DNA from: Mizuhopecten yessoensis
Lineage: Eukaryota
Reading direction: 5' to 3'
DNA length: 64,000 nt
NCBI RefSeq assembly: GCF_002113885.1
Contig: NW_018480057.1
Location: 115,208 to 179,207, forward strand
Shown: positions 1,959-25,128 of the stretch, piece after piece
How positions within the stretch are numbered: the stretch's first letter is position 1
Layout: each line of letters begins with the position of its first letter
Program-made: the position numbers and the translations under genes
Notes under the pieces: model-generated
Seen by the model: the letters and a program-made list of their open reading frames with translations, nothing else
The model's database searches: none
Told to the model about the DNA's origin: nothing

Positions 1959-1993
1959 NNNNNNNNNNNNNNNNNNNNNNNNNNNNNNNNNNN
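1959..1993. other. Assembly gap (35 N)
   Basis: Run of N followed by a C-run. Confidence 0.99.
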
Positions 1994-2381
1994 CCCCCCC
2001 TAGTATGTGCTGGCATTTCTTTTCCGTTCGAGAGATTCAAGTAGGGCTTTCTGTCCGGTGTGCCGATTGTTACTGTGCATCTGTGGTACCGTAGACAGGA
2101 ACAGCCGCCACAGCAGACACATACATGGCCCAAAGTTTGAATAAAACTTGAACTAGTAATATACTGTATTTTCTCTGTCCAGAGTTAATCTCCATCACCC
2201 ATGAACGCGGGATAGTCGCGGAGGGCTTATCAATGTAAAGCCGGCGGATCTACCTTGATATAGCCGGCGTTTCTTCTGCGATCATCTGCGGCTACGAGCG
2301 ACAGGTATTAAAATTTGTCGCTCGGCGGGCGACTGAGTACCAAATCACCTGACGCGTACTGTACTTAATATCAGAACATAC

Positions 2382-5300
2382 CTGGAAGAGATCTAATTGT
2401 GTGCGTCCTTCTATGTTGACGACTTTGTTTTCACGCTTGCCCATCTGTTTACTCTGGAAAGTTGACTCCTTTATAACTGACTTGATGTCTCGGATACGTC
2501 CTAGGAATGTGAAGTCCTTCACTTTGAGATGATTGGCCCGATTGATAAGGTAAGGGGTGTCAAAGTTCTGGATATTATAACCAGTGATGATGTCTGGGTC
2601 CACCTCTCGTACAAATGCTGCCCATCTCTGTGATAAATAAGTGTTCAATGTTTTAAAGTTATATTCCAGCAGTGAAAAGGGACTAATAACCGAATGGTTA
2701 ATCAAGTCAAAAAATCTACTTGAAGCCAGGGCTCCAAAAGTAAAGTACTTCTATCAATGATTGGGTGTCCTTCCTATTATTTTATTGTGGTTGATACCCC
2801 TAACAAGTCCTGGGATGGACTACATATTTTTTTGAATATCCCTAAATTGAATGTGCAATAATCAAATTCATCCCACATTATAATTTATTCTGTATTCAAT
2901 TTATACTGTATCATAATGTAAATAATATCAGTACATATGAAATTTATTCTTAAATATGTTGGGACAACCTCCTTTGTCCATATTGACAGGGTACAAGAAG
3001 CAGAGTAAGAACTAGCACTAATATGTCCGCCTCCTTCATATAACACAGAATGTGAGCCTATGACTTGGGCACAGGTGTTGAGTATGACCGCTATCTACTG
3101 CATTGCCTTGTTCGTGAGACAGAGGACTCTAATCAAGACTTGCACAGATATATTCAGCATAACCTAGCTCTAACATGTTTACCTGCTTCATGTAACACTG
3201 AATCTGAGCCTACAGTATGACCAGGACACAGGTGTTGAATATGACTTACCTCTAACATGTGGGCAACCTTCATGTAACAGTAAATATAATCTGAGCCTAC
3301 AGTATGACCAGGTCACAGGTGTTAAATATGACTTAGCTCTAACATGTTTACCTGCTTCATGTAACACTGAATCTGAACCTACAGATGACCAGGACACAGG
3401 TGTTGAATATGGCTTATCTCTAACATGTGGGCAACCTTCACGTGACAGAAATCAATATCACCATCACTTTGAGTCCGCCTTAGGCTAAGCTCAAACTCAA
3501 TTTCCCAGACTCAATAGTCATACTCAGCTTGAGTCAACTCAACATGGTAGTATAAGGTCTGAGAGCAGTGTACCTATGACCTTGGTGCAGGTATCGAGTA
3601 TACCATACCTCTAACATGTCAGCTTCCTTCATGTGACACAGGACTTGTGATCCTATGACTGGAGCACAGGTGTTGAGGGTGAACACATTCCTAATAAATG
3701 GTTCATGGTCACCCTGCCTGATCACCATGTTTGCAATCTGTATTACCGGATCCTTGTTTGCCTCCGGGAAGATTCCTGTCATTAACAACATAAAATGAAT
3801 TGTAATTTACTACTTGAAATGTACCTATGTTGTCCAACTGGTTATTCTTTAATTTCTAATATATATCACATACACATTATGATATACTTCAGTGAGAAAA
3901 CAAAAAATTAAGTCACTTCTCAAGATGTGTTCTAAGATGAAAATTTAAAAAAAAATATTGTTATCGGTGCATTAAAGTTAAAACTTTCCAGATATCACAG
4001 CCAGCCGTATATCAGCCATTTTTCCAGGTACTTCTATTTAATCCTGTATTACAACTCTTTTTGCATTTCCATTCAGGCAAAATGAAATGACCAATATCAG
4101 TTGATAAAACTTGTTTCAGAATTATCTTAAAATAAATCCTAAATTAGTCATATGAGAAGAGAAAGAGCGAATGGTTTAAGTAATGAATAGGGGGCAATTA
4201 ACAGATCTAGAAACGATGCACGAAAATTCACCACTTCTGAAAAGGCCCCATTTTAGTAACTTTTAGCTACTTCATCATAGTAGAAGTGCCTAGAGTGTTT
4301 AAAAGAACATAGAATTAAAAAAATTACCAACTATCTGCAAATAAAGCGAGAAAACTGACCAAAAGTGACTTCAGATATCTAGTTTACTAAGGCCAAATAA
4401 AATTAATTACTAGGTTCTCGGGCCAATATTTTCAAAAGAGATGCAGCATAACTCCATTTTACATGGCAAAAACGATACGAGGGCCATTTTTTTTTATTGT
4501 GTAGTTTATAAAACGTTCATTGTTGGCATTACCTTGTCTTTTTATAGTTGTGTATAGACCCGTCATAGAGCAAGCCTCCGAAAATCCCCCCACGATGTTC
4601 CAGACGAGAATCACGAACCCCCCATTCCTTATTTGTACCGAAATGAGCGCCATTTGTACACAAGACTAATAAGTCATAATCATTTCAACGCTTGCCTGTA
4701 TATCAATCCTTATCTTTATTCAAATGTTTTCGGGACTAGGATGACTAACAAGTAAAAACGACATGCGGACCAATTTTCCGGATTTTTTTAAAGACAGCGG
4801 CTGGCGCATTCACATTTTTTTTTTTATTACTTTCACGATAAAATCGGCAATGCCGTGCCCTAAAAAACATGTGCCCAGGCCTGAGAACCAAGTAATCAAA
4901 TTTGTATCTAAAGGCATACCAAACTTTATGTTATATCCGGGTAATATCCGACAGTATTCTATAGCTGATCAACTTACCCTTCCTACCAGCACATTCTATG
5001 TCGTAACTGAGGATCCTTAGGGGCGCTACCTTCGACCATTCTCCATCTGGAGCATGAGATATGAAGTCTTCCCAAGACACGTCCAGCTCAACCTGGCACC
5101 GTGAAGTGTGTGGAGGGTGACGGATGTCGGAGTTTGACGAGTTCCTTCGGTCTCGCAGCTGGTATTTACTGGCAGGAACTTCAATCCAGTTACAGCCAAC
5201 CACATCACTGTCTACCATGAAGCTAGAACACAGACAGAAATCACGACTGTAAATGACCCACCATTATTTACGATCAACACAAAAACCTTTTAAAATATCT

Positions 5301-8300
5301 ATCTCTTTTTTTGGTTTGTTGAAGGTTTTATGTTTTAACAATAAATTCATACGAATGTGAATTTTCAATTGAAAAATCGTTGTTATCACTTCCAATCAGT
5401 AAGTCTCTTGTCCTATTCAAGTGAAACCTTCAAATTCTCCCTCAATACCATCTTAAAGTGTGTTGAATAATTCTTCATATTATAGGAACGGCACCCTTGT
5501 TGCATTTTATAGCAAGTTATTTCTTAATAATTTAACCCTCCCTGCAGCAACCTTACTGGTAATCCAATCAAATCAATGTTTGTAAAAGAAAGTAAAGGTG
5601 TTTATTTTGAAAACTGAGCATTAATAAGGCCTTGCGTGATTGGTCCATACTGTTAAAGATAACCAAAACATGGGTAGAAAATGGAAACATTTCGTTTGGA
5701 ACACAATGTTTTAACTGCTGACACGGCCAGTACTCTGAATATAAACCAACCATGCTGACTTTTATCCAACCGTGCTGACTTTGAAATGAAAATGCTGACT
5801 TTTAAATGATCATGCTGACTTTAAAACGACAATGCTGAGTATAACCTAACCATGGTAATTTAAAGTGAATTTCAGTAAAAAGTCAGCATGGGTGCGTTAA
5901 ACATTACCATGATATGAGGAAAGTCAGCATTTTGTTGCACTGGTGACTACAGAATTCTGAATTGCATCAGACTTGGGTAATATAACTGGACATTTCTGAA
6001 TATAACTTGACCACTCTGAATTTTTACTGCAATTCACTTTATATTACCAGTGGATAGCTTAAATTCAGGAGGGATGGCTAAAATTACATATTCTCTAATG
6101 CAGCAAGACAAAGGATTTGTAAAAGAAACTGAAGACTTAATAGTTTTGTGAAACAAACAAATTTCAAAATTCATATTAGGAATCCCAAAATCAAATATAA
6201 GTTTCGATGAATGAATATCATATTTATTTAGAAATATTTCTTTCATCACTCTTAATATAATCTTAAACTTAAATTGCCAAATAATTAACATAAAATAATT
6301 TTGTCACAGATATCCACCAATAAATTCTTACCGAACTTCAAAGTCTATGTTGCTTTCATATGACTGGTATCCATACTGTAAATAGCCTGGGCAAGTAAAT
6401 CCCTGCTCCAACAATCGCTTGGCTGGCGCAATTAAACGAGGAAGGGAAACGGTGATCTTCAGAAATGGCACTTTTCTGTTGCCATGGTACCCATAGATGC
6501 CTAAATAGATTTGAAACCCAATCAGTCAACAATCAAAGTAATTCATTCACTTACTCACCTTTTTAATTAATTTTCTAGCAACTTATGTGCAAAAGGTTTT
6601 TGCAAAATATTTTTGTGTTCATGTATTGTTGTACTAAAATACATTTTACAACATGGGTGGTGCATACAAATGAGAACAACTCACTTTCCTTGTTGACCAT
6701 GTCGACAGCCAGCACAGCATTCTGTAAACCCTCTCGGTTAGACCTCAGGTCCTTCATAACAACAGTGTCGAGTTCCTTCTGTAAACACAATGTAAAACCC
6801 TAGTAACACAGTAGTATTAAAATATTGCAATGTGTTGTGTCTGACTCTGAATTATCAATTGATTAATATAAAATATTTTTATTTTCATGCTAATAACAAA
6901 ATCTACATATTTTTATTTCTTTCCTTAAAAAAAGTATAAATGAATTGTCAGCAAATTTCTGCCAAATGTTAGTTCCATTCTTCACTTGATTATTTTTGAA
7001 AATTTAAACATCGTTTTGATGTTGAAAAAACAAACAAGCATGTCATCATTAGAAACAAGAGCCCCAATGGGCCTGCATCGCTCACCTGGTTTTAATCTCA
7101 CACTTGTAATATTGAAAGTGGACTAAAATACAGCTACAGGCAAAATATCAGTGTTTGATTCATAAGAACCAATTAAAAGATTTAAACATATGAAGCATGT
7201 GACCTTGAATGTCGAACACGGACATCAGGTTGAACAGAGTTTATAGTCTTCCATCCCAGCATGCTTCTGGCAAAATATCATTACCTTGGACATTTTGGTT
7301 ATACAGAACAAATCATTTTAAGATTTAACATATATTGACCACTGTGACATTGAGTATGGGCAAAGGTCATTCACTTGGTAGTCCTTCATCCCAGCATGTT
7401 AATGGCCAAATATCATCACCCTTGGCCTTTTGCTTATATTAAGAAGAAGTCTTTTAAAGGTTTTTTAACATATTTGACCCCTGTGACCTTAAATATATGT
7501 CAAGGTCATTCATTTGAACAAACTTGGTAGTCCTTCATCCCAGCATGTTACTGGCATTATCCTAGGCCTTTTGGTTATTGAGAAGAAGCCATTTGAAGAT
7601 GTTAAGACATTTGACCCCTGTGACCTTGAAAGTTGGTCAAGGTCATTCATTTGAACAAACTTGGTAGCCCTTCATCCCACAGGCCAAATATTAGCAGAGC
7701 TGCCAACCTTAGAGATTAAGAAATAGTAATCTGCGATCGCTTTTTTACAAACATGTATTCATTACCTTTTATTGTTTTTCTCTAAACGTCTGAATGGATA
7801 ATTTCCTTTTTTTCCTAGGAGAATTCACATTGAATTAACTCCAGCCTATCTCGAGAATCGATGCAAACGCACGAGTGTATCTGATTTGCGATTATAATAC
7901 TGAAAACGGACATCGGGACCGGATTACGGCGAAACTAACAAAAAAACAGAAAAATTCCGGATTTTAAAAAAAAAATCGTAATTTTACTTGGAAAATCGTA
8001 CTAGCGTAATTCAGACCTCAAAATCATAATAATTACGCCTAAATCGTAAGAGTTGGCAGCTCTGTATCAGTACCCTGGGTCTGTTGGTTATTGAGAAGAA
8101 GTCATTAGAAGATTTTAACATATGTTACCCCTGTGACCTTGAAAGTGGGTCAAGGTCATTCATTTGAACACACTTGGTAGCCCTTCATTCCAGCATGCTA
8201 CAGGCCCAATATCAGTACCCTGGGCCTTTCGGTTATTGAGAAGAAGTTGTTTAAAGTAAAATATTGACGTGGGACGGACGACGCACCATGGCATATATTG

Positions 8301-11300
8301 ACCACTGTGACATTGAGTATGGGCAAAGGTCATTCACTTGGTAGTCCTTCATCCCAGCATGTTAATGGCCAAATATCATCACCCTTGGCCTTTTGCTTAT
8401 ATTAAGAAGAAGTCTTTTAAAGGTTTTTTAACATATTTGACCCCTGTGACCTTGAATATATGTCAAGGTCATTCATTTGAACAAACTTGGTAGTCCTTCA
8501 TCCCAGCATGTTACTGGCATTATCCTAGGCCTTTTGGTTATTGAGAAGAAACCATTTGAAGATTTTAAGACATTTGACCCCTGTGACCTTGAAAGTTGGT
8601 CAAGGTCATTCATTTGAACAAACTTGGTAGCCCTTCATCCCATAGGCCAAATATCAGCAGAGCTGCCAACCTTAGAGATTAAGAAATAGTAATCTGCGAT
8701 CGCTTTTTTACAAACATGTATTCATTACCTTTTATTGTTTTTCTCTAAATGTCTGAATGGATAATTTCCTTTTTTTTCTAGGAGAAACGTCTTCTTGCCC
8801 GTCCAGTTTGACACGTTTTTCCGCCATTTTACTTCATCTACAAACGTCCTTTTCACATTGAATTAACTCCAGCCTATCTCGAGAATCGATGCAAACGCAC
8901 GTGTGTATCTGATTTGCGATTATAATACTGAAAACGGACATCGGGACCGGATTACGGCGAAACTAACAAAAAAACAGAAAAATTCCGGATTTTAAAAAAA
9001 AATCGTAATTTTACTTGGAAAATCGTACTAGCGTAATTCAGACCTCAAAATCATAATAATTACGCCTAAATCGTAAGAGTTGGCAGCTCTGTATCAGTAC
9101 CCTGGGTCTGTTGGTTATTGAGAAGAAGTCATTAGAAGATTTTAACATATGTTACCCCTGTGACCTTGAAAGTGGGTCAAGGTCATTCATTTGAACACAC
9201 TTGGTAGCCCTTCATTCCAGCATGCTACAGGCCCAATATCAGTACCCTGGGCCTTTCGGTTATTGAGAAGAAGTTGTTTAAAGTAAAATATTGATGTGGG
9301 ACGGACGACGCACCATGGCATAAGCTCACTTGGCCTTCTGGCAGGTGAGCTAAAAATACAATATGGTACACATGTACAGCATTATAAAAAGTTGGCTACG
9401 TATTTGTAATACATTGGAATTCAGATAGCGTGCACTAATTAGTATTTATATTGCTGTACTTATTTTGATTGGCAGTACATGTCAACAGCCCTATAAAACA
9501 CCATTTACGTGAATTTTATTCAAATCCAGATATCTGCAAGATGTTTTAACTTCAGATAGACTATCAAATATGGAACAAATAAAAAAACTTTATATCTCAC
9601 AAAACATAAATATAATGGTGACAAACAGCACCCAGTACAACAGCATTACCCTGAAAGCATCACAATCCTGACTCTTAAAGCCTGGCTGAGCAGGGACGAA
9701 GAAGTAAGGTGCATAGCCGTGCATGTGGGCAAGTACACAGTGTCCCTCCATTGTCACACCATACATCCTAATGATAGGTACTGGCCCGCTCGTACATCCA
9801 GGCATACCTGGCATGTGTTTACCTGTAAACACAAAGCTTGATTTAGCCATTTGTAGTCTCTGTACACATCATAGTTCTTAATTACTACTGAAAATATATT
9901 TTCAATGTAGATCTGCAAACATAAGGACCAAAATAAAGAGGGAATATATATTCAGATTTTTACTTTTTTGACGTGCAATAAAATATCCTGTTTAACACAA
10001 TGAGAATTTCGGTTACCATGTTTTGCTTAAAAAACAAATAAAAGACAAAAGCATGTTAATGGTAGCATACTTTTCGGTTACTGAAACAGGAAACCAAGCT
10101 CAAGATCTCTCACCAACATAATAATCCACATCCATCTGCTGAAAGGTCACACTGTCTTTTCGGGGGTCAAGAGTTGGAGCCAGAGGTCGAGACCACTTTG
10201 TACTGGTTGCCACATTGTCTGGACCATCACCTAAAACAAAACATGGAGGACTTGTAATGTTTCCAGTCAGACCTCGACTATGTAGGTGTAAACTTCTTTT
10301 ATTAGAATTTCAACAAAATAATTAGAGGTGTGTATCGCAAGGGTTATGACGATCGATACGTATCACGATACATGGGTCACGATATGATACGTATCGCGAT
10401 ACTTGTCACAACTTTCTGTACAAATATGTTACTATAGTTTTTCTTAATTTGAAACTTTTAACCTTGATATGAAATAAATATAAAGTGTTTGTATACCATG
10501 CTCAATTTATTTGTTTTGAAATGTCATCTATCTCATAAATTGTAAAGCATTTCTTTTTTTGATTATCCTACATAAACACATTCATTCAGATGATGAATTA
10601 TGTTGGGAAAACTGATCACACTAGCGCCTAATCGTTTATAATGGTAAGTTGGGTGTTGTCCCTTCGAGTAGGAGATCTGTTGACACCTGACCTGGTATGG
10701 GCAGAGCAGGTGCTGTCGGTAATATTAAATGTTGGTTTTACAAAAAATATGTTTTAAGAGAAACTTTGATCCTATTGATGGGGTACAATTTCAATTTTTC
10801 CTGAAATATACATCAGTTTTCCGAGTGTCTGCAAATCCAACTGGACCCGACAGCAATATTAGAGGAGTGAGTTTAGTTAAAGGCAGTCACTCACCAATCA
10901 GATATCAACGAGGACTGCTAACAGCTGAATTATGGCGACATAAAAACACCAAACTCTTAAGATTTCAGCTTTTCCTTCTTTTAGGAGATTGTTTTCAGTC
11001 CCTTCTAATTATCTTTTAAACTGTAATTGACATCATTGCCGATTCAAACCGTATTTATGTGTCCCTGTGAGTTCCTGCAAGTACTAAATATTTCTGAAAA
11101 TGTCTGAATTATTGCCGATAAATGGTCGCAATACAGGACTGGTAACCAGTCTAAAAGAGCGGTAACTGGCCGTATATAACGTTTTTAAAGTAACGCGATA
11201 CTATCGGCGAATGCCACGATGCATCGGCAATCAAGAAATGATACGATTCAACGATGCATCGTCGAATCGCTACACCGCTAAAAAATAATATAAAACCCAT

Positions 11301-12580
11301 TGTTCTTTTAGACTCGAAAAAAGGATTCTTAAAAAGCCAGTCAACTTAATTTGTGCCTGTTCATCAACAGCAACATTGACTGAAAGATGTCTGCATGAGG
11401 AATGTTAAATTTGTTACACCTAGAACTTTGTGACAGTGATACACTAATAAGAACGCCCAGTGTTCAAACTTAACGGTACGTCAAAAGACAGTCGCTATAG
11501 AAAATGCTGTCTATTAATTGGCATTTATTTAGTTCATAGACCAAGCTTGTAGGGATCTTGTAAATATTTAGATATATGCATCTGTGTTTTTGTTACCTAA
11601 ATTTTACAACAGCCTGTTCCTTTATGAATTGGGAAAATATAGCACTATTTGTATTAAAATCGGGAATAGATTCCTCATTTTTTTGATATTTTGAGAAAAT
11701 AAGGCACTTTTTAGCTAAGGGAAACAGCCTGTATTTGGCAGAAAAACTGTGCATCATGAGAAAATGTATTGTCACAGCTCTAAAGGAAAGATTTTTCTGA
11801 TACAACAACTATTTGTAAACTTTAACCTGCAACATCTGCCATGTCAACATCTCCCTTCATTTCATTTTCCATTTCATCAAACATTGCCAGCTCATCCTCA
11901 AAACCTGCTGGGTCCTCATCGTCAAAGTCATTTCTGAAATAGTTATATCTGTATTAGTATAATTTATTAAATCAATAATGTACAGCTCTATGCCGTCTCA
12001 GTTACATGATAAGTAAAAAAAATATGTATAGACTGTATCATCAAATGATAAAACACAGCACACATATACAAGCACAAGTCATACACATCCAAATGAAAAC
12101 TACTGAGAGAACACAGCATATATACATACAAGTCATACACAGCTAAATAAACCATATTTTCTTGATAAATTATGAACTAAGATATGTTGAGAAAAGGATA
12201 TTTTTTAATTACTTTTATTGCATAATGATTTTATTTCCTAAAATGAGTGGATGAATATTATCTGCATAATGAACTCAGTTGTGGAATTCATTAAAACAAA
12301 ATTTTGGTTCCCAATTGGGTATTTTAAATGCACAAACTGTTTCTACTGGGAATTGAACTTAAACAGTACCCAATACACTCCCGGAAGTGCCAATATTGGT
12401 TTTTAACAATTATGATTTTGGTAATTTGTCCTGATCATTTCATATTTATAAGGCAAATTCAATTTAGCTATCACTTTTGACAGATTCAACAGTTGAATTT
12501 AAAACTATTTATATACAATTAAGACATACAACAATGTACCTGGCTTTCTTTGCGGGTGGTCCCAACTTTTTAGCATCCAT
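2382..12580 (-). CDS. POLD1: DNA polymerase delta catalytic subunit, 5' part (N-terminal and 3'-5' exonuclease domains); incomplete at the 3' end
   Basis: Coding exons (minus): 12580-12540 ([14 protein letters not shown]), 11933-11827 ([12 protein letters not shown]), 10230-10114 ([14 protein letters not shown]), 9822-9650 ([22 protein letters not shown]), 6778-6685, 6500-6332 ([10 protein letters not shown]), 5222-4978 ([27 protein letters not shown], ExoI), 3775-3609 ([15 protein letters not shown]), 2627-2382 ([17 protein letters not shown], ExoII). All introns are GT-AG and phases are consistent. Confidence 0.97.
3014..3608 (-). repeat. Degenerate ~80-bp tandem repeats derived from the 3' end and donor of POLD1 exon 3775-3609
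   Basis: Units of the form ctctaacatg..ttcatgtaacac..atgac..cacaggtgttga match exon sequence 3609-3676. Confidence 0.75.
4387..4910. mobile_element. MITE with imperfect terminal inverted repeats
   Basis: aattactaggttctcgggcc (left) versus ggcctgagaaccaagtaatc (right, reverse complementary). No coding capacity. Confidence 0.5.
7695..8064. mobile_element. hAT-like MITE, copy 1 (internally deleted)
   Basis: TIR cagagctgccaac / gttggcagctctg; flanks tattag / tatcag. Confidence 0.8.
8658..9091. mobile_element. hAT-like MITE, copy 2, with 6-bp TSD
   Basis: Perfect 13-bp TIR cagagctgccaac. TSD tatcag on both sides. The empty site (aatatcagtacc) is present in neighbouring host units. Confidence 0.85.
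10323..11280. mobile_element. hAT-like non-autonomous element
   Basis: Termini tagaggtgt / acaccgcta, subterminal cgatac/gtatcg repeats, near-8-bp TSD aaaataat (one-base slip in the A-run). Confidence 0.65.
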
Positions 12581-12894
12581 TGTGTTTCTTTCTTTCCTAT
12601 GCCATGTAATATACTGTAAAGGAAGAACAAAAGGTTCCTTTAAAATTTACTAAAGAACACTTGCACATAACTGTAAACCAGATATATTAATAAGTATAAA
12701 TGTACTACAATATTAAGTATTTATACCGCACTAAAATAAGTACCGTGCATGCGCATTGTATTATATTGTTAAATACAATTGAAAAAATATATATATAAAA
12801 CATTGATTATAATTTAGTTTCATCTAAAACTACTGCCTAAAAATATTTGATATTTACGAATAAAAAATATCATGCTTTTATGGCAGGTTTTAAT

Positions 12895-13304
12895 TGTACA
12901 TAGGATTTAGGTTGCCTTAGCTTCTAGCTTCGAGTTAGAGGGAATTTCCCTTTAGCCCAGCTAGGAACCTGGAGATCGAGGGTGGAAGCACACTATTCTT
13001 TCCTGTTACAAATGGTGTCCGTGGCCCTCCCTGTGGTGACAGGGAGTTAGAATCTGGGTTGTGGTGTACGAGGACGAACACATTTAATAAAACCAATAGC
13101 TTGCAGTTTACGCCTTAGATAAAAGGGGGGGGGGGGGGGGGGGGGGGGGNTTTAATTGTACATAGGATTACCGGTAAGGTCGCCTTCTAATTTAGAGTTA
13201 GAGGGAAGTTCCCTTTAGCTCAGTGGTAGAGCGTCCAACTAGGAACCTGGAGTAATCGAGGGTTTGATTCCTGGTGGAAGCACCCTTTTCTCTTTCCTGT
13301 TACA
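12895..13304 (+). mobile_element. TRIM-like miniature LTR element with tRNA-like A/B boxes inside the LTR (Ajax-like)
   Basis: Direct repeats TGTACA..TGTTACA at 12895-13010 and 13157-13304. PBS-like aaTGGTGTCCG follows LTR1 and an A/G run (PPT-like) precedes LTR2. LTR2 contains TAGCTCAGTGGTAGAGC and GGTTTGATTCC. Confidence 0.7.
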
Positions 13305-14310
13305 CTTTAATCTTTAAAATGAATTAATTTGAGAGCATATCACACATGCAATAAATTCATAACAACACATCAACAGGTCAATGTCCCAATTTGCAATGAG
13401 TCAGCTGTATTATTGTTATTTCATTTCACACCTTTGGCTATTAAAAAGGGTCAAAGTCATAGTTTACCAAATGCAAGACACAGTTTGTGACATGCTTCTT
13501 ATGGTGAAACAAGAGCTTGTATACGTAACAGCCACCAACCCACTGTTACATACAAAAGGTCAAGACTGGATTTGAACCCACAACCTCCGAACTCAAGATG
13601 ATTGCATGTTCAAAAAATAACCAATTGAGCTACGTCACCCAGCTGAGTCCTGTTTAAAAACTCCCTCCTTTTTTAAGCCTTTGGCCCTAAGGCTGAAGAC
13701 AACGTTATTTCATTAACAACCCCAGGTTTGGGTATCCCAAAGAGGAAGAAAATGGACCAGGCTAAGATGTTAACTAAACTTCCGGGACCAATCCAAACTC
13801 ATTCTTAACCTGTTCTGAAGTGGCCTAGCTGCTTCACTCCAAAAATACAATGTCCGATTCTTTTTGGGCGAGAACTCTTTGTGTTCAGGTGTACACATAC
13901 GAAGATGTCAAACTAATGCTGGTATGTTATCAGTTTCTTCTTGCCCTGAAACATTTAAATTTACAAGCTGATATATAACGACCCCATATTTTATTTAATA
14001 TTATCTGTTTTACTATTTTTTGGTTGGATCGGACCATGACTGTGAAAATACCCACTATCCTGGGTCCTTTGCTACTACAGTTTAGTGTGTGTAAGCTAAT
14101 CATGTGCAAGCTGTACGTTGCTGAGAAATAAAGTGAAAATGAAACCTACATGTTTCTCTTTTAAATTGGACCTTTTTTTGCCTAGAAAGTCTAGATATTG
14201 TGAGGAAAACGGCAAAATATACATCATTTGATCTCAACTATCTTAATAACAAAATTACATTAGCAGCTGACTTAGTTATCCAGTATGTCAAATGAAGTAA
14301 AAATATTTTG

Positions 14311-14631
14311 CTTACCTTAGCTTTCAACTTACGTATTTTCCTGAAAACGCGGGAGTGAGAAACTCTCGTGTTGTCTCGCGTTACTATATGAATCGTTAAG
14401 TATACATTAGTACAGAGATAGAACTTTTGCATATTCTTTCATTGATTTATGAGCTAATTTTTCATAGTTGTTATATATGGCACCATTTTAACCATTTACC
14501 ACATATGTATAATATCGGGGAAAGGACAGCATTCGGGGACCTTTTACGTGTTTGAGGTCAACTTCCGGTTGTACTTTCACTTTCTAGGCAACTGAACTAT
14601 CTGTTGACGTGTGAAATATCTTGGAGCTAAA
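14311..14631. promoter_or_regulatory. Putative bidirectional promoter shared by POLD1 (non-coding first exon) and the BPL-like gene
   Basis: Minus-strand donor AAG|GTAAGC at 14316/14315 could pair with the acceptor at 12614-12615 just above the POLD1 ATG exon. The region is locally CpG-rich, with an E2F-like GCGGGA at 14349-14354 and an ETS motif ACTTCCGG at 14561-14568. The BPL-like ATG is at 14632. Confidence 0.65.
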
Positions 14632-17600
14632 ATGGCACTAGATACCTTTGATGTAGCCGAATTCCAAAAGCATTTGACTGCAAATGAATTTGGAAAGAAA
14701 TTCACATATAAAGATATAACAGAGACAACGATGGATGATGCATTGAAGGCTGCAAATGAAGGCAAATAATTTATCATTAGTCTGTTAGTATGACTCGTGT
14801 ACTGTCGCCCATATTAGTTTTGTCTTATGTGTATAGATATTTTTAACCGAAAATTGTTAGTAGATTGGCATTGCTATCATTGTCATATGGTGTGTTTTAT
14901 TATACAGCTAAGGAATTTGAGGGGGAAATACTGCCTGCTAATGTCAGGCAAGCTTAAAACATGTAGGTTTTCCAGCGATGCAGTAATTAACCCGGGGACC
15001 CGCTCACTATATAGTTCAGCAAAATCGAGTTTGGCCAGTAGCTGGATGGGTGATCAACCGCACGTACATTTGGTGGCAGCTTATAGTGACCCTGCTGTAT
15101 CATGTAAGGCCAGTTCTCAGACAGACCCAGTGGTATTGGAAGGTGCATTGGGGGGACTTCGACACAGGATTCCCCAGGCCAAGACTCAGGATGATACTTC
15201 TCTGAGTGGAAATAATGTAATAATAAAAAAGCTGAGGTAAACCAGGATTTAAACCTGGGTCAGTGGGACCTCCAAACTCTTAAGACAGATGCTCTAACCA
15301 ATCAAGCTACCTCAGCACTGAGGTCACACAATCGACCCTGTGAGTCCAATTCCACTATACACATCGATATATAGATTAATTCATTGTATATATATATATA
15401 TATAGTAGGTTTTAACAACGCTCTTATCAGCTCTTATAATATAATGCAATATACTAAAAATTTCAATTTACCGGGGTAGTATTATTTAGATCTCAAAAGC
15501 AAATTTCTACACCTGACTTATACTTCAGATGCATCTGCTTGAAAACTATTCCACATGTTAACAGTTCTTTGTGCTTTTGAAAGGTTCTGAACATTAGTGG
15601 ATGATTGAACCCAGTGTTAAATAGTCAAATGGAGTTTGACAAGGTTCATATATCTCGGAAAGGATTGGCATAGCTCTATCATGTCACCTCTTAAATCGGC
15701 TGAGGGCCATGAACGGTAAATTTAGATTCTGCTTTATTTAAAAGCTCTTGATTGAATGGACTTGAAACTTCAATGACCTAAATTAAAAGAGCTCATATGG
15801 ATCCTACATGTATTGTGAATCTTTTTCGTTAGAATATCACACACGACACTTCATCTTATGTAATTTTAAATTTAAAACAGGAGCACCTAACGGGACTGCC
15901 ATTATGGCTGAGCAACAATCTAAAGCTAGAGGAATGAAGAATCGTAAGTGGAATGCACAGTACACTGGAAACATATACATCTCCTATGTCTACCACAGAG
16001 AGGCTGTTTTTGAGGTATCATATACATATATCTTTTCTTAACAATATGTATTTTTCCAAAATTGGTTCATGTTACTTGAAAATGTCATGGATAAAAAATA
16101 ACTTGATTATAACTCATGAATCTTATAAATGGTGTTTGTAATTTTTTTTTTTTAAATCAGTCGTTAGAAATTGCTCTACAAATCTCAAATCATAGAGTTT
16201 AACAATGCATCTAAAATAACATATAAAAGTTGGTTCAAAACATTTTTATGTGTGTTGTGATACTGTGAAGAATAAAGGATTCTTAATGTTTGAAATCCTT
16301 CAGTCACGTTTTCATGTTTTAGGCTACTAGAAAAGCTGTTTTAAGGACAATATATCAATGTGTTTGAGCTATTTTTGAATAGGGAAGTTATCTGTAGAAA
16401 ATCAGACCACTTTAAACCAGAGTGGAATTTCAAAATATGGACCAATAACAAGCACCTGTGTTACCTAAAGGCCATGTCACACCGAGCCGCGAGTGCACAG
16501 CGTTGTTAAATTTCACAGAGCGCCGTGAGATCGCAGTAAAAATTGATATTTTTCATGAAGATGTCGATGTCACAGCATTCTCACGGCGACCTTGGCGTTT
16601 CTACGGAGCTCCATGGCGTTCTTCCACGTTCCTACAGAGTTCTAGGTAGCAGTGAACAGTAGAAATGGCCCGACTCTGATAAACAAGGCACATGTCGAGG
16701 AAATGTAAACACAGCGGATTTACCCTACACAACACATGTATACATGTATATATATTTGTAAACTGCATTACATTTACAATACATATAAAGTACTGAGAAG
16801 TGTATAAACCTCTTTCTTCTATGTATGTCACTTGTGTGAAAACCATGGTTACATCAAAAAATGCCAAAAATTACTATTTTTAACCCAAAATTTGACCCCG
16901 CAACTAGTAATTTTTTTCCTAAGCTCTGTCTGAAATTAAAGATTACCTTCCTGGTTGCAGAATTATCTGGGTCCCAGTAAAGTTGTAAAACTTGCTTTTT
17001 TGCAATTTTGCGTCGTGTGCTGTTGTCAAAATTGTACCTCCTGTAAAGCTAGCTTTTCATGTGTACGCACCCCTTCGTATTATGGCCAAAATTTTATTCT
17101 CGAACCAAAGAAATCTTCTTTCTTTTTTACAAATGTGAAGCTCACATAGCCCACTTCATCATGCTTATACCAATTTTAGTACAGTTTTATTTTTATATTT
17201 TTTTTACATATCATTATACAGGGGTTAGCCATTTAACAAAATTATCACCCATGGCCACAACCCTCTACTGTATACTGCTACCCTAGTTGGCGATTGTCTG
17301 CACTCTAATGGCGCTCTCACGGTGCCTCCACTGCGTGCATCAAGTTGTCACGGCGCTGTATAAGCGCAGTAGAGACGCAGTGTCATCTCAGAGAACGCCA
17401 TGCAAGCGCCACCGATAACCATTGCACTACGACCTCTGTGCGCGCCTGCAGCGATCCTGTGGCGCTGCTATGGCGACCTCACGGCAATCCCACTGCGCTC
17501 TTATCAGAACGCCAAGCGACGGCGTTTTTTTGGGCATGCTCAAAGTGCGCGCCGTCGCTCCGCGTTCTATGCGATCCCACCGCGTTCACTGGCGATGCTT

Positions 17601-20600
17601 GCGATTCCACTGCACGCAGATTGGCGTTCTGCATTTTTCTTGGACGCCCTGGCATTGCAGCCCTAGTATTACAGGGCTTTTACACACACCTGTCTGCCTT
17701 CACAGATAAGGAGATACTTTAGGAGAACACACAGTAACAAACACTTGAGCAGAGACGCTCAAACACTGCACTCCTTACTGTGTTGAATATAATGTCTTGC
17801 TAGAACAATGTTCTGGAGATTACATTGGGCACTAGAAAAAAAATCAAAATAGTATCAGGGTTAGACACAAACCTTTTTTTGCTTGTTATTCCACAGGACT
17901 AGTTAACTAGATTATTTACTAGTCCTACGTCAATGTAATGAGTCCAAGATTTCCTGATAAGGAAACATCTCGATCTACAGCACGAAACATCAAGTAATCG
18001 ACTGTAGGGGACTTAAAATAACTACTGCCATAGAAATATGGTTTAAGGAAAAAAATTAGGATTGTTTTTACAATTTTCATGAAATACATCTTATTTTAAG
18101 CAGTTTTCTAAAATTTTAAAAGGAATATCTTTATCATTATAATATTTTTCACAAGTCAAAAGGACCATTACGGTTGGGTGTTTCACTAGTCCTTGCTGAA
18201 ATCTACTAGTCCAGGACTAGTGTTAGTGTCGAATCTTGAGTATCCTTTTGACTTTTCCAGATCTATACAAATTTATAATGCTGTCCATTGACAAATGAAA
18301 TTTTGTATTTTATAGACACACAATACTTGTGAAAAATATTGTTAAAAGAAATTCTTCCATGGCAGTCCAACATGCAGATGACATGAACCTGATGTTTTCA
18401 GGATCCAAGGAAGGATGAAAATATGATGGAGGTCGCAGGAGCACTGGCTGTTTATATGACACTTGCTGACTTGGGTGTGGAGGGTATCAACATCAAATGG
18501 CTGAATGATATCTGGGTCAGAGGTCATAAGATGGCAGGAATATTGGTAGAGGATAAAGGACCTTTACCTTGTAAGTATAGGTCTACAGTGATTGTGCTTT
18601 TAGTTTGGAAGATACAGGAATGTTACAATGTAGGTACTGTATACTGGGATTTATTTACTGTCGCACTATTTACTGATGTTGCTCAGTAAGTGAAAGTTAA
18701 GTTTTTGTGATTTAAAATTTTGTGATTTTCCCGAGGTTGGAGTCTAATATATGATAACTTGATAAGTGTATAGATTTAATCTTCAAATTTACCTGGTGTC
18801 ATGAAAACTGCTCACCACCTATAAGATGTGATGTATGTATCTGTTGTGCCTTTAATCATTTAAATGACCTTGACCTACTTTCAAGGTCACAGGGGTCAAA
18901 TATGTTAAAAATTTCAAACAACAATATCATAAGAACAATTCGGACTAGAGTCATGATACTGGGGTATGTTATGTAGACCAGCAGTGCTAATCTTTTTCTT
19001 ACAGTAATGAGGTTAAATGTCAACTTTTAGTGCTAGTCGGGGGTCAAAGGTCAACATGGGTTAAAAGCTTTAACATTCCTCTTCTCAAGTTCCATAAGGC
19101 CTAGGGGCATGATATTTGGCCAGTAGGTACCTGGGATGGAATGCTATAGACTTTCCTCATTAAAATGACCTTGATCTACTTTCAAGGTCGCAGGGGTCAG
19201 ATATGTTAAAAACTTCAAATAACAATATCTTAAGAACCATTAGGTCATGATACCCGGGTATGTTATGTAGACCAGCTGTGTAAATTGTTTTCTTTATTAC
19301 AGTAATGAGGTCAAAGGTCAACGTTAAGTGCTAGCTGGAGTCAAAGGTTAACGTGGATTAAAAGCTTTAAAATTAAAATTTCACAAATTTCAAACAACAA
19401 TATCTTCAGAACCGTTGAAGAGATGTTAAAATGTCTTGTGTTCTAGTTACCAAATTTAGTCTGAAGTTACCTGTACTGCAAGTATGTTAGTTTCATGTAA
19501 CAAAAGAAAAAGGTGAGCGATACAGGCCCTCTGGGCCTCTTGTTTAATGTTTGGTTGTTTCACCATTTGCATTTTTTCTTTATGAAGCAGTTAAAAGTTT
19601 CATGCCACTTTTTGAAGAAAAGTTTACCAAAGTTTCCTTTTATTTCCCAACCAGTTGATAAAACAAAGCGTTTGTGTATCGTTGGTATTGGTGTGAATGT
19701 GAATGCTGATGTGCGTCGACACCCTGAGCTACACACGATATCTACCAGTGCCCGTAGTCAGCTGAACGGCAGTATTGTGAACCGAGAGCACTTCCTGGCA
19801 AAAATGAGCAAGTACCTAGAGGAGTGCATGTCCCTGACACAGGAGGACTTGTTCCAGAATGCCATCAAATATCAACTGTTCCAGCTCAATGAGCCAGTCA
19901 GGATTCACAGTATGTTAAATCAAAAAGTGACTGATGGAACCCTGGTGGAATTTCTCGACAACTGGTCAATCAAACTAAAAGGTATCACAGAACTTTATAT
20001 ACTAATGAAGTTATCAGTGGCTACATTGATTGAAAAGAAAAAGAAAACAAGACTTTGATGTTAAGTTGTAATTGCATAGTTAGGTGAATGCTTATTTAAG
20101 TGGAATGATGATAAGTTATGTTGGAAAATCCAAGAGTGAATACACTTAGTAAAATTGACTCTTAATGCATAAAAATGTGTACTGGGTATCAGTACTTCAA
20201 ATTCAAGTTTCAAAATACAAATGTAAACTATTAACAAGGTAAAGAAACATTAACAAGACATGATGTAATGTAATTTACATGTAAGCAACATGTTGATAAC
20301 AGTCACAGGATCACCACAGCACAAAACCAAATTACAAAATGAGGGCATTGAGAGCAAGTGTATCTATGTAAACTTCTATAACATTTTTTACCTGAATATT
20401 TTAATAAGTAATTTATTAGGCAGATCTGTACACAAACATTATGGAATTTGGCCTGTTAACTGTTTCATTTCTGTGCACTAAATTCTTTAAATATCCTTAA
20501 ATTTAAAATTGCACAGCAGCTGCAAATTAACGTTCTATCGTCTGATTGGTCAATCGGTTTCTGTGAAAAAACTGTTCATTAAATATCATCATATTTTACA

Positions 20601-23600
20601 CTTATAAAAATATCCTGGTTAAAATAAAAAGCACTGACACAATAATCAAAGAATCTGTTTACTTGCTATATGTTGTATACAGATGAGAGTGGTGAGGTAT
20701 GGACAGCAATGTCTGACCACTATTCCATCCGACCATGTGCGACCTCTACAGTGTATGTATACAACGGGAAGATGGCATGTCCCTGGAGCTCAGTAGCCAT
20801 GCTGAAGTGTCTGTCTTCCCTTGTAAACATCACTCACACAACCATCTCCCTGCTCAATGACACCAAACTGAAGGAAGGTCAGTCCAGTATGGTTTTGTAT
20901 ACATAATGGCCTCCGATTTGTTACAAGGTTTTTTGTTCAGACCACTGTAGACATATTGATGTTATTGTATTTGAACAGGAAAATTTATTCTGATCATTCT
21001 ATTTCGGTCAACCGACTGCCTCTATCAGGAGTTAAAATTGCGGGATCATCATGTGATGTACCTGTCAAATGTTTATACACGCACTGTTAATTTGTTTGTA
21101 AACAAACATTAGGCCTAGAAGTGTAAACAATACAAACTGTACATGTACAAAGAAACTATATTGTTTACATCAAGAGCCGAAAGTAGAAAATACTGAGCAA
21201 AAAAATGTGTTATTTTTCTCTCTTTCTTTGTACACCGAAACAGACTTGTATAATGTAATTAATCCTTCATTAATTATATTTTAACCACCAGGGCGATATC
21301 GATGTCAAAAATAAAAAGGTATTTTTCCCATCCCCCCCCCCCCCCCCCCCAANTAAAATTGAGGTTTATGCTGTATACCTAATACAACATTTGAAGGATA
21401 ATTAATGGAAATACCTTAACACCATTTCACTTCTCTGTTTGTGAACATTTCCTTCACACACCCCTCAAATTGCCAACTCAAATATAATGTCAAAACTTCA
21501 TTTAAAATTGGTGGCAGTATAACAAGGATTTACTGTATTATATTGAAAATATAAGGAAGTCTTTGTGGTTACAGGACTGTGGAAAAAAGATGCTGCTTTA
21601 TTGGTCATTGGAGAGGTTTCCATGGATACTCAAGATATCGACTCTGCTCATCAATCATTTACAGATATACTGAACTTCATAGAAAATGGTGGAGTAGTGA
21701 TGATGATGGGAAATGTGTCCGGATTTTTTACCTCCTACCTACAGTCTGGGTCATCTACAGGTATACTCACGTTGTTTACCTCCTACCTACAGTCTGGGTT
21801 ATCTACAGGTATACCCTTGTTGTTTACCTCCTACCTACAGTCTGGGTTATCTACAGGTATACCCTTGTTGTTTACCTCCTACCTACAGTCTGGGTTATCT
21901 ACAGGTATACCCTTGTTGTTTACCTCCTACCTACAGTCTGGGTCCTATACAGGCATACCCTCGTTGTTTACCTCCTACATACAGTCTGGGTCATCTACAG
22001 GAAAAATCTTGTTGTTTACCTCCTACCTACAGTCTTGGTCATCTACAGGTATACCCTCGTTGTTTTCCTCCTACCTACAGTCTGAGTAATCCTCAGGTAT
22101 ATCGTCGTTGTTAACCTTCTACCTACAGTCTGGGACATCTACAGGTAAAATCTTGTTGTTTACCTCCTACCTACAGTCTGGGTCATCTACAGGAAAAATC
22201 TTGTTGTTTACCTCCTACCTACAATCTGAGTAATCCTCAGGTATATCCTCGTTGTTAACCTTCTACCTACAGTCTGGGTCATCTACAGGTATACCCTCGT
22301 TGTTTTCCTCCTATCTACAGTCTGAGTAATCCTCAGGTATATCCTCGTTGTTAACCTTCTACCTACAGTCTGGGTCATCTACAGGTAAAATCTTGTTGTT
22401 TACCTCCTACCTACAATCTGAGTAATCCTCAGGTATATCCTCGTTGTTTACCTCCTACCTACAGTCTGGGTCATCTACAGATATACTCTCGTTGTTTACC
22501 TCCTATATACCTACAGTCTGGGTCATCTACAGGTATACCCTCGTTGTTTTCCTCCTACCTACAGTCTGAGTAATCCTCAGGTATATCCTCGTTGTTAACC
22601 TCCTACATACAGTCTGGGTCATCTACAGGAAAAATCTTGTTGTTTACCTCCTACCTACAGTCTGGGTATCCACAGGTATACCCTCGTTGTTTACCTCCTA
22701 TCTACAGTCTGGGTCGTCTACAGGTATACTCTCGTTGTTTACCTCCTACCTACAGTCTGGGTCGTCTACAGGTATACTCTCGTTGTTTACCTCCTACCTA
22801 CAGTCTGGGTCATCTACAGGTAAAATCTTGTTGTTTACCTCCTACCTACAGTCTTGGTCATCTACAGGTATACCCTCGTTGTTTACCTCCTACCTACAGT
22901 CGGGGTCATCTACAGGTAAAATCTTATTGTTTACCTCCTCCCTATAGTCTGGGTCATCTACAGGTAAAATCTTCTTGTTTACCTCCTACCTACAGTCTGG
23001 GTCATCTCCAGGTAAAATCTTATTGTTTACCTCCTTCCTACAGTCTGGGTCATCTACAAGTATACTCTCGTTTTTTACCTCCTACCTACAGTCTGGGTCA
23101 TGTACAGGTATACCCTTGTTGTTTACCTCCTACCTACAGTCTGGGCCATGTACAGGTATACCCTTGTTGTTTACCTCCTACCTACAGTCTTGGTCATCTA
23201 CAGGTATTCCCTCGTTGTTTACCTCCTACCTACAGTCAGGGCCATCTACAGATATACTCTCGTTGTTTACCTCCTACCTATAGTCTGGGTCATCTACCGG
23301 TAAAATCTTGTTGTTTACCTCCTACCTATAGTCTGGGTCATCTACCGGTAAAATCTTGTTGTTTACCTCCTACCTATAGTCTGGGTCATCTACATGTAAA
23401 ATCTTGTTGTTTACCTCCTACCTATAGTCTGGGTCATCTACCGGTAAAATCTTGTTGTTTACCTCCTACCTACAATCTGAGTAATCCTCAGGTATATCCT
23501 CGTTGTTAACCTCCTACATACAGTCTGGGTCATCTACAGGAAAAATCTTGTTGTTTACCTCCTACCTATAGTCTGGGTCATCTACAGGTAAAATCTTATT

Positions 23601-25128
23601 GTTTCCCTCCTACCTACAGTCTGGGTCCTCTACAGGGATACCCTCTTTGTTTACCTCCTACCGACAGTCTGGGTCATGTACAGGTATACCCTTGTTGTTT
23701 ACCTCCTACCTACAGTCTGGTCATCTACAAGTATACTCTCGTTGTTTGCCTCCTACCTACAGTCTGGGCCATCTACAGGTAAAATCTTATTGTTTCCCTC
23801 CTACCTACAGTCTGGGTCCTCTACAGGTAAAATCTTATTGTTTACCTCCTTCCTACAGTCTGGGTCATCTACAAGTATACTCTCGTTTTTTACCTCCTAC
23901 CTACAGTCTGGGTCATGTACAGGTATACCCTTGTTGTTTACCTCCTACCTACAGTCTTGGTCATCTACAGGTATTCCCTCGTTGTTTACCTCCTACCTAC
24001 AGTCAGGGCCATCTACAGATATACTCTCGTTGTTTATCTCCTATATACCTACAGTCTGGGTCATCTACAGGTATACTCTCGTTGTTTACCTCCTGCCTAC
24101 AGTCTGGGTCATCTACAGGTAAAATCTTCTTGTTTACCTCCTACCTACAGTCTGGGTCCTCTACACGTATACCCTCGTTGTTTACCTCCTACCTACACTC
24201 TGGGTCATCTACAAGTATACTCTCGTTGTTTACCTCCTACCTACAGTCTGGGTCATCTACAGGTATACTGATTCTCATTGATTAAACAACAAAGTTACAG
24301 CCAGGATTCCTTATTGACCACAAGCTTACTGTTAAGGAAATAGACTAGTATTAATATATCAATATGGTCGGCTATAAACCAGAGGCGTAGGTTCATTACC
24401 CATATACATGCAGTAACTAGTCATGAGCAAACAACCGCTTCATAAAACACAGGAAGCCCTATAGTCTTAATATATTGTCAGTAGCTAGGCATTTGCTACA
24501 AAGGTCACAAAAATAAATTTCCTTGACCTATATTCAAGCTCATGGGGGTCGAAACTGTAAAACCACAATTTGAAAATGAAATGAGTCGTGATATTTGGCC
24601 AGTAGAAAGCTGAAATGAAGTGCTATGAAGTTTGCAAAAAGAAATACCACTTAAATCAGGTGAGCTAGACAAATTGGACCTCTTGTTAAGATTATAAGCT
24701 CCAGCATTTCATCATCAAGGACAAAATTTACTGAAAATGATATCTTAATTTCAGAAACCACCTGTAGCTTGCAGCCAACGCATGGAGGATCTGCCGATAC
24801 TGCTGTGCCAGGTCGCTTGGTTAGCCTGAACTTGAAGTGTGGAGACCTTGGTCAGGTATTCGGGTACAGTATCAACAAGGAAAATATCACATTCCAGGAA
24901 ACAACAGGACAGTCCCCAGAAGTTCTTGCTTGCTATGGAAATGGTGAGGCAGCTGTGCTTGTTTCTACATATGGCAAGGGCTCCTGTGTGTTGATAGGTT
25001 TCAATGCTGAGATAACTTACACGGAAGACTGTGTTAGCTTGTCGGATGCAGAGCTGAATAGCCTGCGAGACACTGTGTTTGTAAGGGACGAACTTATGCT
25101 CTGTATCCTTAAAAGGTTTGGATTGTGA
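14632..25128 (+). CDS. Biotin-protein ligase-like protein (504 aa): BirA-like catalytic domain + SH3-like C domain + C-terminal BPL_N (GATase-like) domain
   Basis: Exons 14632-14761 (GC donor), 15881-16014, 18402-18570, 19655-19981, 20683-20877, 21575-21760 and 24755-25128 join in frame (1515 nt including TGA). BPL/BirA motifs: GAPNGTAIMAEQQSKARG..RKW, IKWLNDIWVRGHKMAGILVE, IVGIGVNVN. BPL_N-like motifs follow: VYVYNG..WKKDAALLVI..NFIENGG..EVLACY..AAVLVSTYGKGSCVLIG..ILKRFGL*. Confidence 0.88.
14962..15080 (+). mobile_element. LTR-like remnant carrying a 5S rRNA internal-control-region-like sequence (Cassandra/Helenus-like)
   Basis: 15013-15055 aligns without gaps to the 5S A-box/IE/C-box (about 29/43 against the remembered animal 5S sequence). 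It is followed by ..GTACA and a PBS-like ttTGGTGGCAGC. Confidence 0.5.
15216..15362 (-). mobile_element. tRNA-like solo-LTR-type repeat
   Basis: Minus strand reads TGTATAG..TAGCTTGATTGGTTAGAGC..GGTTTAAATCC..TTACA. Confidence 0.45.
16468..17679. mobile_element. PIF/Harbinger-like non-autonomous element with GC-rich ends
   Basis: Imperfect TIR aaggccatgtcaca / tattacagggcttt, TA-rich flanks, and CpG-rich subterminal blocks unlike the host intron. Confidence 0.45.
17856..18238. mobile_element. hAT-like MITE with 5-bp TSD
   Basis: TIR cagggttagacac / gtgtcgaatcttg. AGTAT directly flanks both ends. Subterminal ggactagt/actagtcc motifs. Confidence 0.7.
18820..19543 (-). mobile_element. HINE-like element fragment with an internal ~310-bp duplication
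   Basis: Ends in ggtgagcgatacaggccctctgggcctcttgtt, the reverse complement of the family 5' end seen at 7054 and 36157. Confidence 0.55.
21725..24268 (+). repeat. 48-bp minisatellite (~53 copies) spanning the exon-6/intron-6 boundary of the BPL-like gene
   Basis: Unit ttgtttacctcctacctacagtctgggtcatctacaggtatactctcg. The first copy is the end of exon 6. Confidence 0.97.

What the first reader, a model, noticed from the sequence alone, without database searches (positions are those of the whole stretch)
21725..24268. About 53 tandem copies of a splice donor: an in-frame 48-bp minisatellite built from the exon-6 end
Seen: each unit is the last ~36 nt of exon 6 plus the first ~12 nt of the intron (ACAG|GTATAC or ACAG|GTAAAA). 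The unit is 16 codons, and the frame stays open to TAA at 22087-22089. Same-phase GT donors follow 21760, 21808, 21856, 21904 and 22048, and a GC donor follows 21952. Each unit also contains an acceptor-like ttgtttacctcctacctacAG. Inference: donor choice could add 0-6 copies of a 16-aa repeat (GIPLLFTSYLQSGxST) inside the BPL_N domain. Donors beyond the stop would give NMD targets, so array length could tune isoforms and expression or support recursive splicing.
Basis: partly seen in the sequence, partly recalled or inferred. Interest (0 to 1): 0.7.

Follow-up and report, generated by a model that had tools for sequence, protein, structure and literature searches.

The report
Repeated splice donor in scallop gene
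In a scallop biotin-ligase-like gene, the end of exon 6 and its splice signal are repeated 52 more times into the next intron, yet most assembled transcripts use the first signal, so this is likely a tolerated repeat of a kind already known from human and lancelet genes, with a weak hint that one sample's RNA keeps an extra copy.

Summary
The array is real: 53 units of 48 bp (21727-24269); 44 of 53 unit ends keep GT, and the frame is open to TAA 22087-22089. The host is a 7-exon, 504-aa BirA-like gene identical to a Yesso scallop RefSeq protein. A DNA run covers the unit about 40-fold deeper than flanks, against an assembly artefact. In 5 of 6 spliced runs laid, one contig carries a single copy into exon 7; three show the 21760 join directly. 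No recursive or micro-exon joint appeared, and no known protein carries the repeat. This matches human F7, CBS, 6-16, LMNB2 and PDGF boundary minisatellites and amphioxus 'mirages', where the first donor dominates (PMC1557585, PMC3087553). One run (X9) has a low-depth contig with one extra unit not contiguous in this assembly: later-donor use from another allele, or unspliced RNA. Contigs hide rare isoforms, so minor use stays open. The scan's notes list 45 findings under these words, and two similar arrays in this genome. Verdict: new member of a known kind; tuning and recursion unsupported.

The parts
21727..24269 (+). 48-bp minisatellite, 53 units, first unit spanning the exon 6 / intron 6 boundary
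   Evidence: DNA run X6 depth about 37-43 times flank
21575..21760 (+). exon 6 (186 nt); its last 34 nt are the repeat core
   Evidence: RNA contigs of X1, X5, X9, X15 join 20877 to 21575
21758..21766 (+). authentic donor CAG|GTATAC (6 of 9 matches to the recalled consensus, no +5 G)
   Evidence: unbroken contigs in X1, X5, X15 leave the genome at 21760 and continue with exon 7
21761..22048 (+). six in-frame, stop-free units; GT pseudo-donors after 21808, 21856, 21904, 22048; GC after 21952
22087..22089 (+). first in-frame stop (TAA) in unit 7
24215..24262 (+). last full unit; equals the array's majority unit and has a core identical to the exon-6 end
24270..24754 (+). non-array 3' part of intron 6 with the acceptor AG at 24753-24754; holds a high-copy repeat fragment near 24585-24640
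24755..25128 (+). coding part of last exon (exon 7)
14632..14761 (+). coding exon 1 (GC donor)
   Evidence: joined model identical to RefSeq X1 protein
15881..16014 (+). exon 2
18402..18570 (+). exon 3 (biotin-ligase catalytic motifs)
19655..19981 (+). exon 4
20683..20877 (+). exon 5

Best explanation
This is a 48-bp minisatellite whose unit copies the exon 6 end and donor of a scallop BirA-like gene; the main transcript uses the first donor and removes the other 52 copies with the intron, and the copies are likely neutral, silent pseudo-donors. Shown: the array, its boundary-spanning unit, first-donor splicing in the dominant contigs, an uninserted 504-aa protein. Inferred: a short duplication across the boundary seeded the array, slippage or unequal exchange expanded it, and the spliceosome takes the first usable donor downstream of exon 6's acceptor (exon definition or oriented scanning, as tested on human F7). 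Occasional use of a second or later donor, perhaps allele-dependent, is likely possible as in CBS and 6-16 but is not shown.
For: X1, X5, X15: one contig spans exons 4-6, ends on the genome at 21760 and goes on into exon 7; depth in bin 21735-21790 equals 26/56 of contig depth, so nothing lies beyond 21760. X10, X13: the exon-7 contig matches only the 34-nt core and accounts for all depth on the last unit; 1181 and 1175 nt lie upstream of the junction against 1181 in X5. The 21760 model is identical to RefSeq X1, and X2, X3 are suffixes of it; 3 of 3 cluster members lack an insertion; among the proteins fetched only these 3 carry the core peptide, once each. Donor positions decay like other columns (GT lost in 9 of 53; mean identity to the majority unit 91%). 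Long exact internal repeats (134 nt at 815 spacing, 123 nt at 767) fit block duplication. No unit has +5 G (0 of 53); in F7 only perfect-consensus downstream sites competed (PMC1557585, passages and Discussion).
Against: X9 has a 74-nt contig (word depth 3.85) that runs on past 21760, and its graph is broken at the core, so X9 does not itself prove which donor is used. All runs are contigs, which drop rare variants; no raw reads were offered. 16 of 53 donors match the recalled consensus at 7 of 9 positions against 6 of 9 for the real one. The scanning mechanism was tested in mammalian cells, not in molluscs. Neutrality is inferred from one allele.
Confidence: 0.8

Rival explanations
1. Leaky or allele-dependent donor choice: in some alleles the second or a later in-frame donor is used often enough to give proteins with 16-aa insertions after Thr380, without this being regulated.
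For: X9's four contigs account for all depth on the unit (predicted 6.60, 15.19, 20.34, 0.741; observed 6.6, 15.2, 20.3, 0.74). The extra contig is core + linker + core, about 40% of non-loop passes by word depth, with no cover of 24307-24490. In the window 15 of its 44 31-mers are single-copy while 79 other 31-mers of multiplicity 4 or more left no contig, which argues against random unspliced RNA from a window-like allele. Human CBS and 6-16 use two pseudo-sites besides the real one (PMC1557585 Introduction passage). The insertion site lies in a stretch of 24-57 residues among 16 homologues against 42 here.
Against: 1 of 6 runs, at a depth of a handful of reads; X10 from the same study shows no loop. 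The loop equals the majority unit (inferred from the 99+% class), so low-level unspliced RNA from an allele rich in such units would give the same contig. No inserted protein.
Confidence: 0.14
2. One reading: array length is a selected dial for isoforms and NMD, or the units act as recursive splice sites.
For: Unit length is a multiple of 3; six units are open; AG|GT in 35 of 53 units; YAG in 47 of 53.
Against: One unit length in three is in frame by chance; open run P about 0.10; the YAG motif also sits unused inside exon 6; no joint into the array; intron is only 2,994 nt, whereas recursive splicing is mostly described for very long introns (recalled); 4 orthologous proteins show no insertion.
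Confidence: 0.04
3. The array is inflated or made by the assembly.
For: The genome is fragmented (82,659 contigs); the X9 unit arrangement is not contiguous in the window.
Against: DNA run X6: summed word depth 213.4 on one unit against 4.9-5.8 on flanks, ratio 37-43; 36 distinct sequences among 48 full-length units; an X6 contig runs from the last unit into the unique intron. X6 may be the source of the assembly, so it supports existence, not polymorphism.
Confidence: 0.02

Closest known systems
Human F7 intron 7 37-bp VNTR (Borensztajn et al. 2006, PMC1557585; abstract, outline, passages and the Discussion read)
   Same: First unit spans the exon/intron boundary; identical donor copies follow; the most upstream donor is used.
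   Different: 53 units against 5-9; unit mostly exonic (34 of 48 nt) against 4 of 37; in frame with six open units; pseudo-donor competence not tested here.
Human CBS intron 13 VNTR (15-20 units) and interferon-inducible 6-16 intron 2 minisatellite (25 pseudo-sites), as described in the Introduction of PMC1557585; primary papers not read
   Same: Donor-reiterating arrays; there two pseudo-sites are used besides the real one, which is what the X9 contig could reflect.
   Different: Later-donor use is shown in those genes and only hinted in 1 of 6 runs here.
Human LMNB2 (100 bp x 10-15) and PDGF intron 4 (81 bp x 16-18), as described in PMC1557585
   Same: Array fills much of an intron (84% here); only the authentic donor used.
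   Different: Shorter unit, more copies, a mollusc.
Amphioxus 'mirage' minisatellites (Adh3, BflGb6, BflGb9; PMC3087553, passages read)
   Same: Tandem duplications of an exon/intron boundary in a marine invertebrate that do not disturb regular splicing; many units keep splice signals.
   Different: Length instability is shown for mirages and only inferred here; different phylum.

Membership tests
Exon/intron-boundary minisatellite (F7-type, 'mirage') | Tandem array with a unit in the minisatellite range | tested here: met
   48 bp x 52.9
Exon/intron-boundary minisatellite (F7-type, 'mirage') | First unit spans a real, used exon/intron boundary | tested here: met
   RNA contigs splice at 21760, inside the array; protein identical to RefSeq
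Exon/intron-boundary minisatellite (F7-type, 'mirage') | Splice signal reiterated in downstream units | tested here: met
   GT in 44 of 53, identical 9-mer in 17 of 53
Exon/intron-boundary minisatellite (F7-type, 'mirage') | Regular splicing at the first donor dominates | tested here: met
   5 of 6 spliced runs, single-core contig only; contigs, not read counts
VNTR (polymorphic array) | Copy number or unit order differs between alleles | tested here: inconclusive
   X9's 74-nt arrangement is absent as a contiguous stretch from the window, suggesting another allele; no lengths measured
F7-type oriented scanning | Pseudo-donors are functional when the upstream donor is inactivated | not testable with these tools
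   needs a minigene
CBS / 6-16-type leaky array | Second or third donor used in mRNA | tested here: inconclusive
   X9 loop only
Recursive splicing site | Intermediates or lariats joined at internal AG|GT | tested here: inconclusive
Biotin protein ligase (PF03099) with BPL_N-like domain (PF09825) | Both domains above the Pfam cut-off | tested here: met
   29.4 bits (cut-off 21) at 32-159; 26.1 bits (cut-off 24.2) at 276-361; fold matches solved ligases at E about 1e-16

The most novel reading that the evidence does not exclude
Array alleles set how often a downstream in-frame donor is used, so individual scallops make biotin-ligase-like proteins with one or more 16-aa insertions in a length-variable region: a natural splice-donor ladder that gives protein-length polymorphism without changing the exon. 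The X9 contig would be its trace.
Probability: 0.15. Interest if true: 0.45.

Novelty: new member of a known kind. Interest (0 to 1): 0.17.

Why it matters
As it stands, it is one more example that the first of many identical donors wins, here in a mollusc. Its modest value is as a natural test: four downstream GT donors are sequence-identical and in frame, so products would escape decay and could be counted, which makes it a clean place to ask whether first-donor selection in invertebrates is strict or leaky. If the X9 hint held, it would be an allele-dependent protein-length polymorphism made by splicing.

Tried and rejected
Assembly artefact: rejected on X6 depth and unit diversity. Selection for an open frame: P about 0.10 by shuffling. 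Selection on donor GT, for or against: loss rate like other columns. A dispersed repeat or transposon origin: one DNA search found the unit only here. Inserted isoforms in protein databases: none in 13 hits or the cluster lists. X9 loop as random unspliced RNA from a window-like allele: does not fit k-mer multiplicities, but fits an allele rich in majority units. Absence of RNA cover at 24307-24490 is weak, as contigs show presence only. The structure model is uninformative at the insertion site (pLDDT under 50 at 375-447, 8 sequences), so it is not used as evidence of a loop. In one search a high-copy fragment near 24589-24634 filled the loose-end and piece tables (52 and 391 rows not shown), so X9's loop there was read from depth arithmetic, not from a listed row. 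Orthologous introns could not be read: no related genomes are held. The 6-16 primary paper was not held. Paper searches without hits.

Full report
Observation. Tandem Repeats Finder reports a 48-bp array at 21727-24269 with 52.9 copies and 86% matches. Splitting it gave 53 unit ends. 44 of 53 are followed by GT, 35 of 53 read AG|GT, and 17 of 53 have the same nine bases as the first donor. Each unit is a 34-nt core identical or close to the end of exon 6, plus a 14-nt linker whose first 7 bases match the flank after the last unit. First and last cores are identical. GT follows 21760, 21808, 21856, 21904 and 22048, GC follows 21952 and GA follows 22000. The frame stays open to TAA at 22087-22089. 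A search of the genome with three units found them only at this locus (a lower bound).

Host gene. Seven coding exons (14632-25128) give 504 aa with the 21760 donor. This is identical to RefSeq isoform X1 of LOC110443006 of Mizuhopecten yessoensis, and isoforms X2 and X3 are suffixes of it. Pfam finds BPL_LplA_LipB at 32-159 and BPL_N at 276-361, both above cut-off. The N-terminal half of the model matches solved biotin protein ligases at E about 1e-16. The junction falls after Thr380, just past the stretch that Pfam aligns, within the C-terminal BPL_N-like half. Four orthologues of 494-504 aa align through the junction with no insertion. RefSeq models are predictions guided by RNA, so they are only partly independent evidence.

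Is the array real? In DNA run X6 the summed word depth on one unit is 213.4, against 4.9-5.8 on single-copy flanks, a ratio of 37-43. The tool warns that this is no copy number and that X6 may be the source of the assembly. It still shows tens of copies in reads. 36 of 48 full-length units are distinct, mean identity to the majority unit is 91%, and there are exact internal repeats of 123-134 nt at spacings of 767-815, as expected from block duplication.

Which donor is used? 19 runs were listed, all as contigs; I laid 7, of which 6 show spliced contigs, from 5 studies. In X1, X5 and X15 one contig runs through exons 4-6, leaves the genome at 21760 and continues with the first bases of exon 7; depth in the last bin is exactly what a stop at 21760 predicts. 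In X10 and X13 the exon-7 contig matches only the 34-nt core, explains all depth on the last unit, and has the same upstream length as X5's within 6 nt. So 5 of 6 runs show a single-core transcript only, three of them directly. Contigs drop rare variants, so this shows the dominant form, not exclusivity.

The exception. In X9 the graph is broken at the core: upstream contig 4.6, core 13.2, exon-7 contig 7.34, and a 74-nt contig at 3.85 that runs past 21760 with one difference. These four account for all depth in four bins of two calls. The 74-mer is read as core end, linker, core start, with the linker of the majority unit; that is inferred from the 99+% class and depth, not from printed letters. 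It is not contiguous in the window; 15 of its 44 31-mers are single-copy there, while 79 other 31-mers of multiplicity 4 or more left no contig. So X9 likely carries a different allele, and some of its RNA holds at least one extra unit. This may be use of a later donor, or a little unspliced RNA from an allele rich in majority units. A depth of 3.85 is a handful of reads, and X10 of the same study shows nothing similar.

Signs of function. None found. 16 of 52 units stop or shift the frame, and shuffled order leaves the first six open 9.5% of the time. GT is lost in 9 of 53 units, in line with other columns. The intron is 2,994 nt. Donors 22096 and 22144 lie 7 and 55 nt past the stop, so not all post-stop donors would be decay targets under the 50-55 nt rule (recalled, mammalian; untested in scallop). 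The junction region is 24-57 residues long among 16 homologues against 42 here, so one extra unit might be tolerated; the structure model is too weak there to say.

Mechanism. Shown: boundary-spanning array and first-donor splicing as the dominant form. Inferred: a short duplication across the boundary, expansion by slippage or unequal exchange, and selection of the first usable donor. For human F7, minigenes showed that identical downstream donors are functional but unused, and that only perfect-consensus sites compete (PMC1557585; abstract, passages, Discussion). Here no unit has +5 G; 16 of 53 score 7 of 9 against the recalled consensus versus 6 of 9 for the real donor, and all 16 lie past the stop.

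Comparison and novelty. The Introduction of PMC1557585 lists F7, CBS, 6-16, LMNB2 and PDGF as genes with such arrays; CBS and 6-16 use two pseudo-sites, LMNB2 and PDGF only the authentic one (primary papers not read). Amphioxus 'mirages' are the invertebrate equivalent and do not disturb regular splicing (PMC3087553, passages). I found no paper on this scallop array, within the held library only; supplements were not read. The scan's own notes hold 45 findings with these words in at least 23 genomes and two similar arrays in this genome; these are unchecked AI notes and were not tested here. Verdict: a new member of a known kind, interest 0.17. The open point is the X9 contig.

Noticed in passing
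window 14632-25128 (+): The host gene has a BirA-type catalytic domain followed by a C-terminal BPL_N-like domain, the reverse of the order the Pfam name implies. Full-length relatives are named from bivalves, gastropods and Lingula. A separate PF03099 gene with a holocarboxylase-synthetase-like motif (recalled) lies at G000:C130, so this looks like a second biotin-ligase-like family in molluscs and brachiopods. One paper search found nothing on it. Its origin was not tested by a tree.
   Followed up: partly
window 14759-14767: Intron 1 begins with GC (AAG|GCAAAT); the model using it is identical to RefSeq X1. Not covered by the RNA lays.
   Followed up: partly
window about 1800-14400 (-): Exons on the minus strand look like DNA polymerase delta catalytic subunit (recalled from motifs); it would be head to head with the biotin-ligase-like gene, with starts a few hundred bases apart.
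   Followed up: no
window 60470-61733: A second minisatellite, 41 bp x 30.8, ends about 85 nt before a likely exon at about 61818 of an aldehyde-dehydrogenase-like gene (recalled from motifs); it does not appear to include the splice site.
   Followed up: partly
L011 about 1720-2480: A tandem array with an 11-codon period lies next to an exon of the other PF03099 gene.
   Followed up: no
window 24585-24645: Short fragment of a very high-copy repeat in the unique part of intron 6 (summed depth 47,878 in X6; also abundant in RNA runs). A similar short hit lies at 21506-21546.
   Followed up: no
window 20742, 24307, 25424, 25443, 25444, 25491: Allelic differences in the runs: a substitution in exon 5 (X9), a 4-nt insertion in intron 6 (X6) and four substitutions in the 3' UTR.
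   Followed up: no
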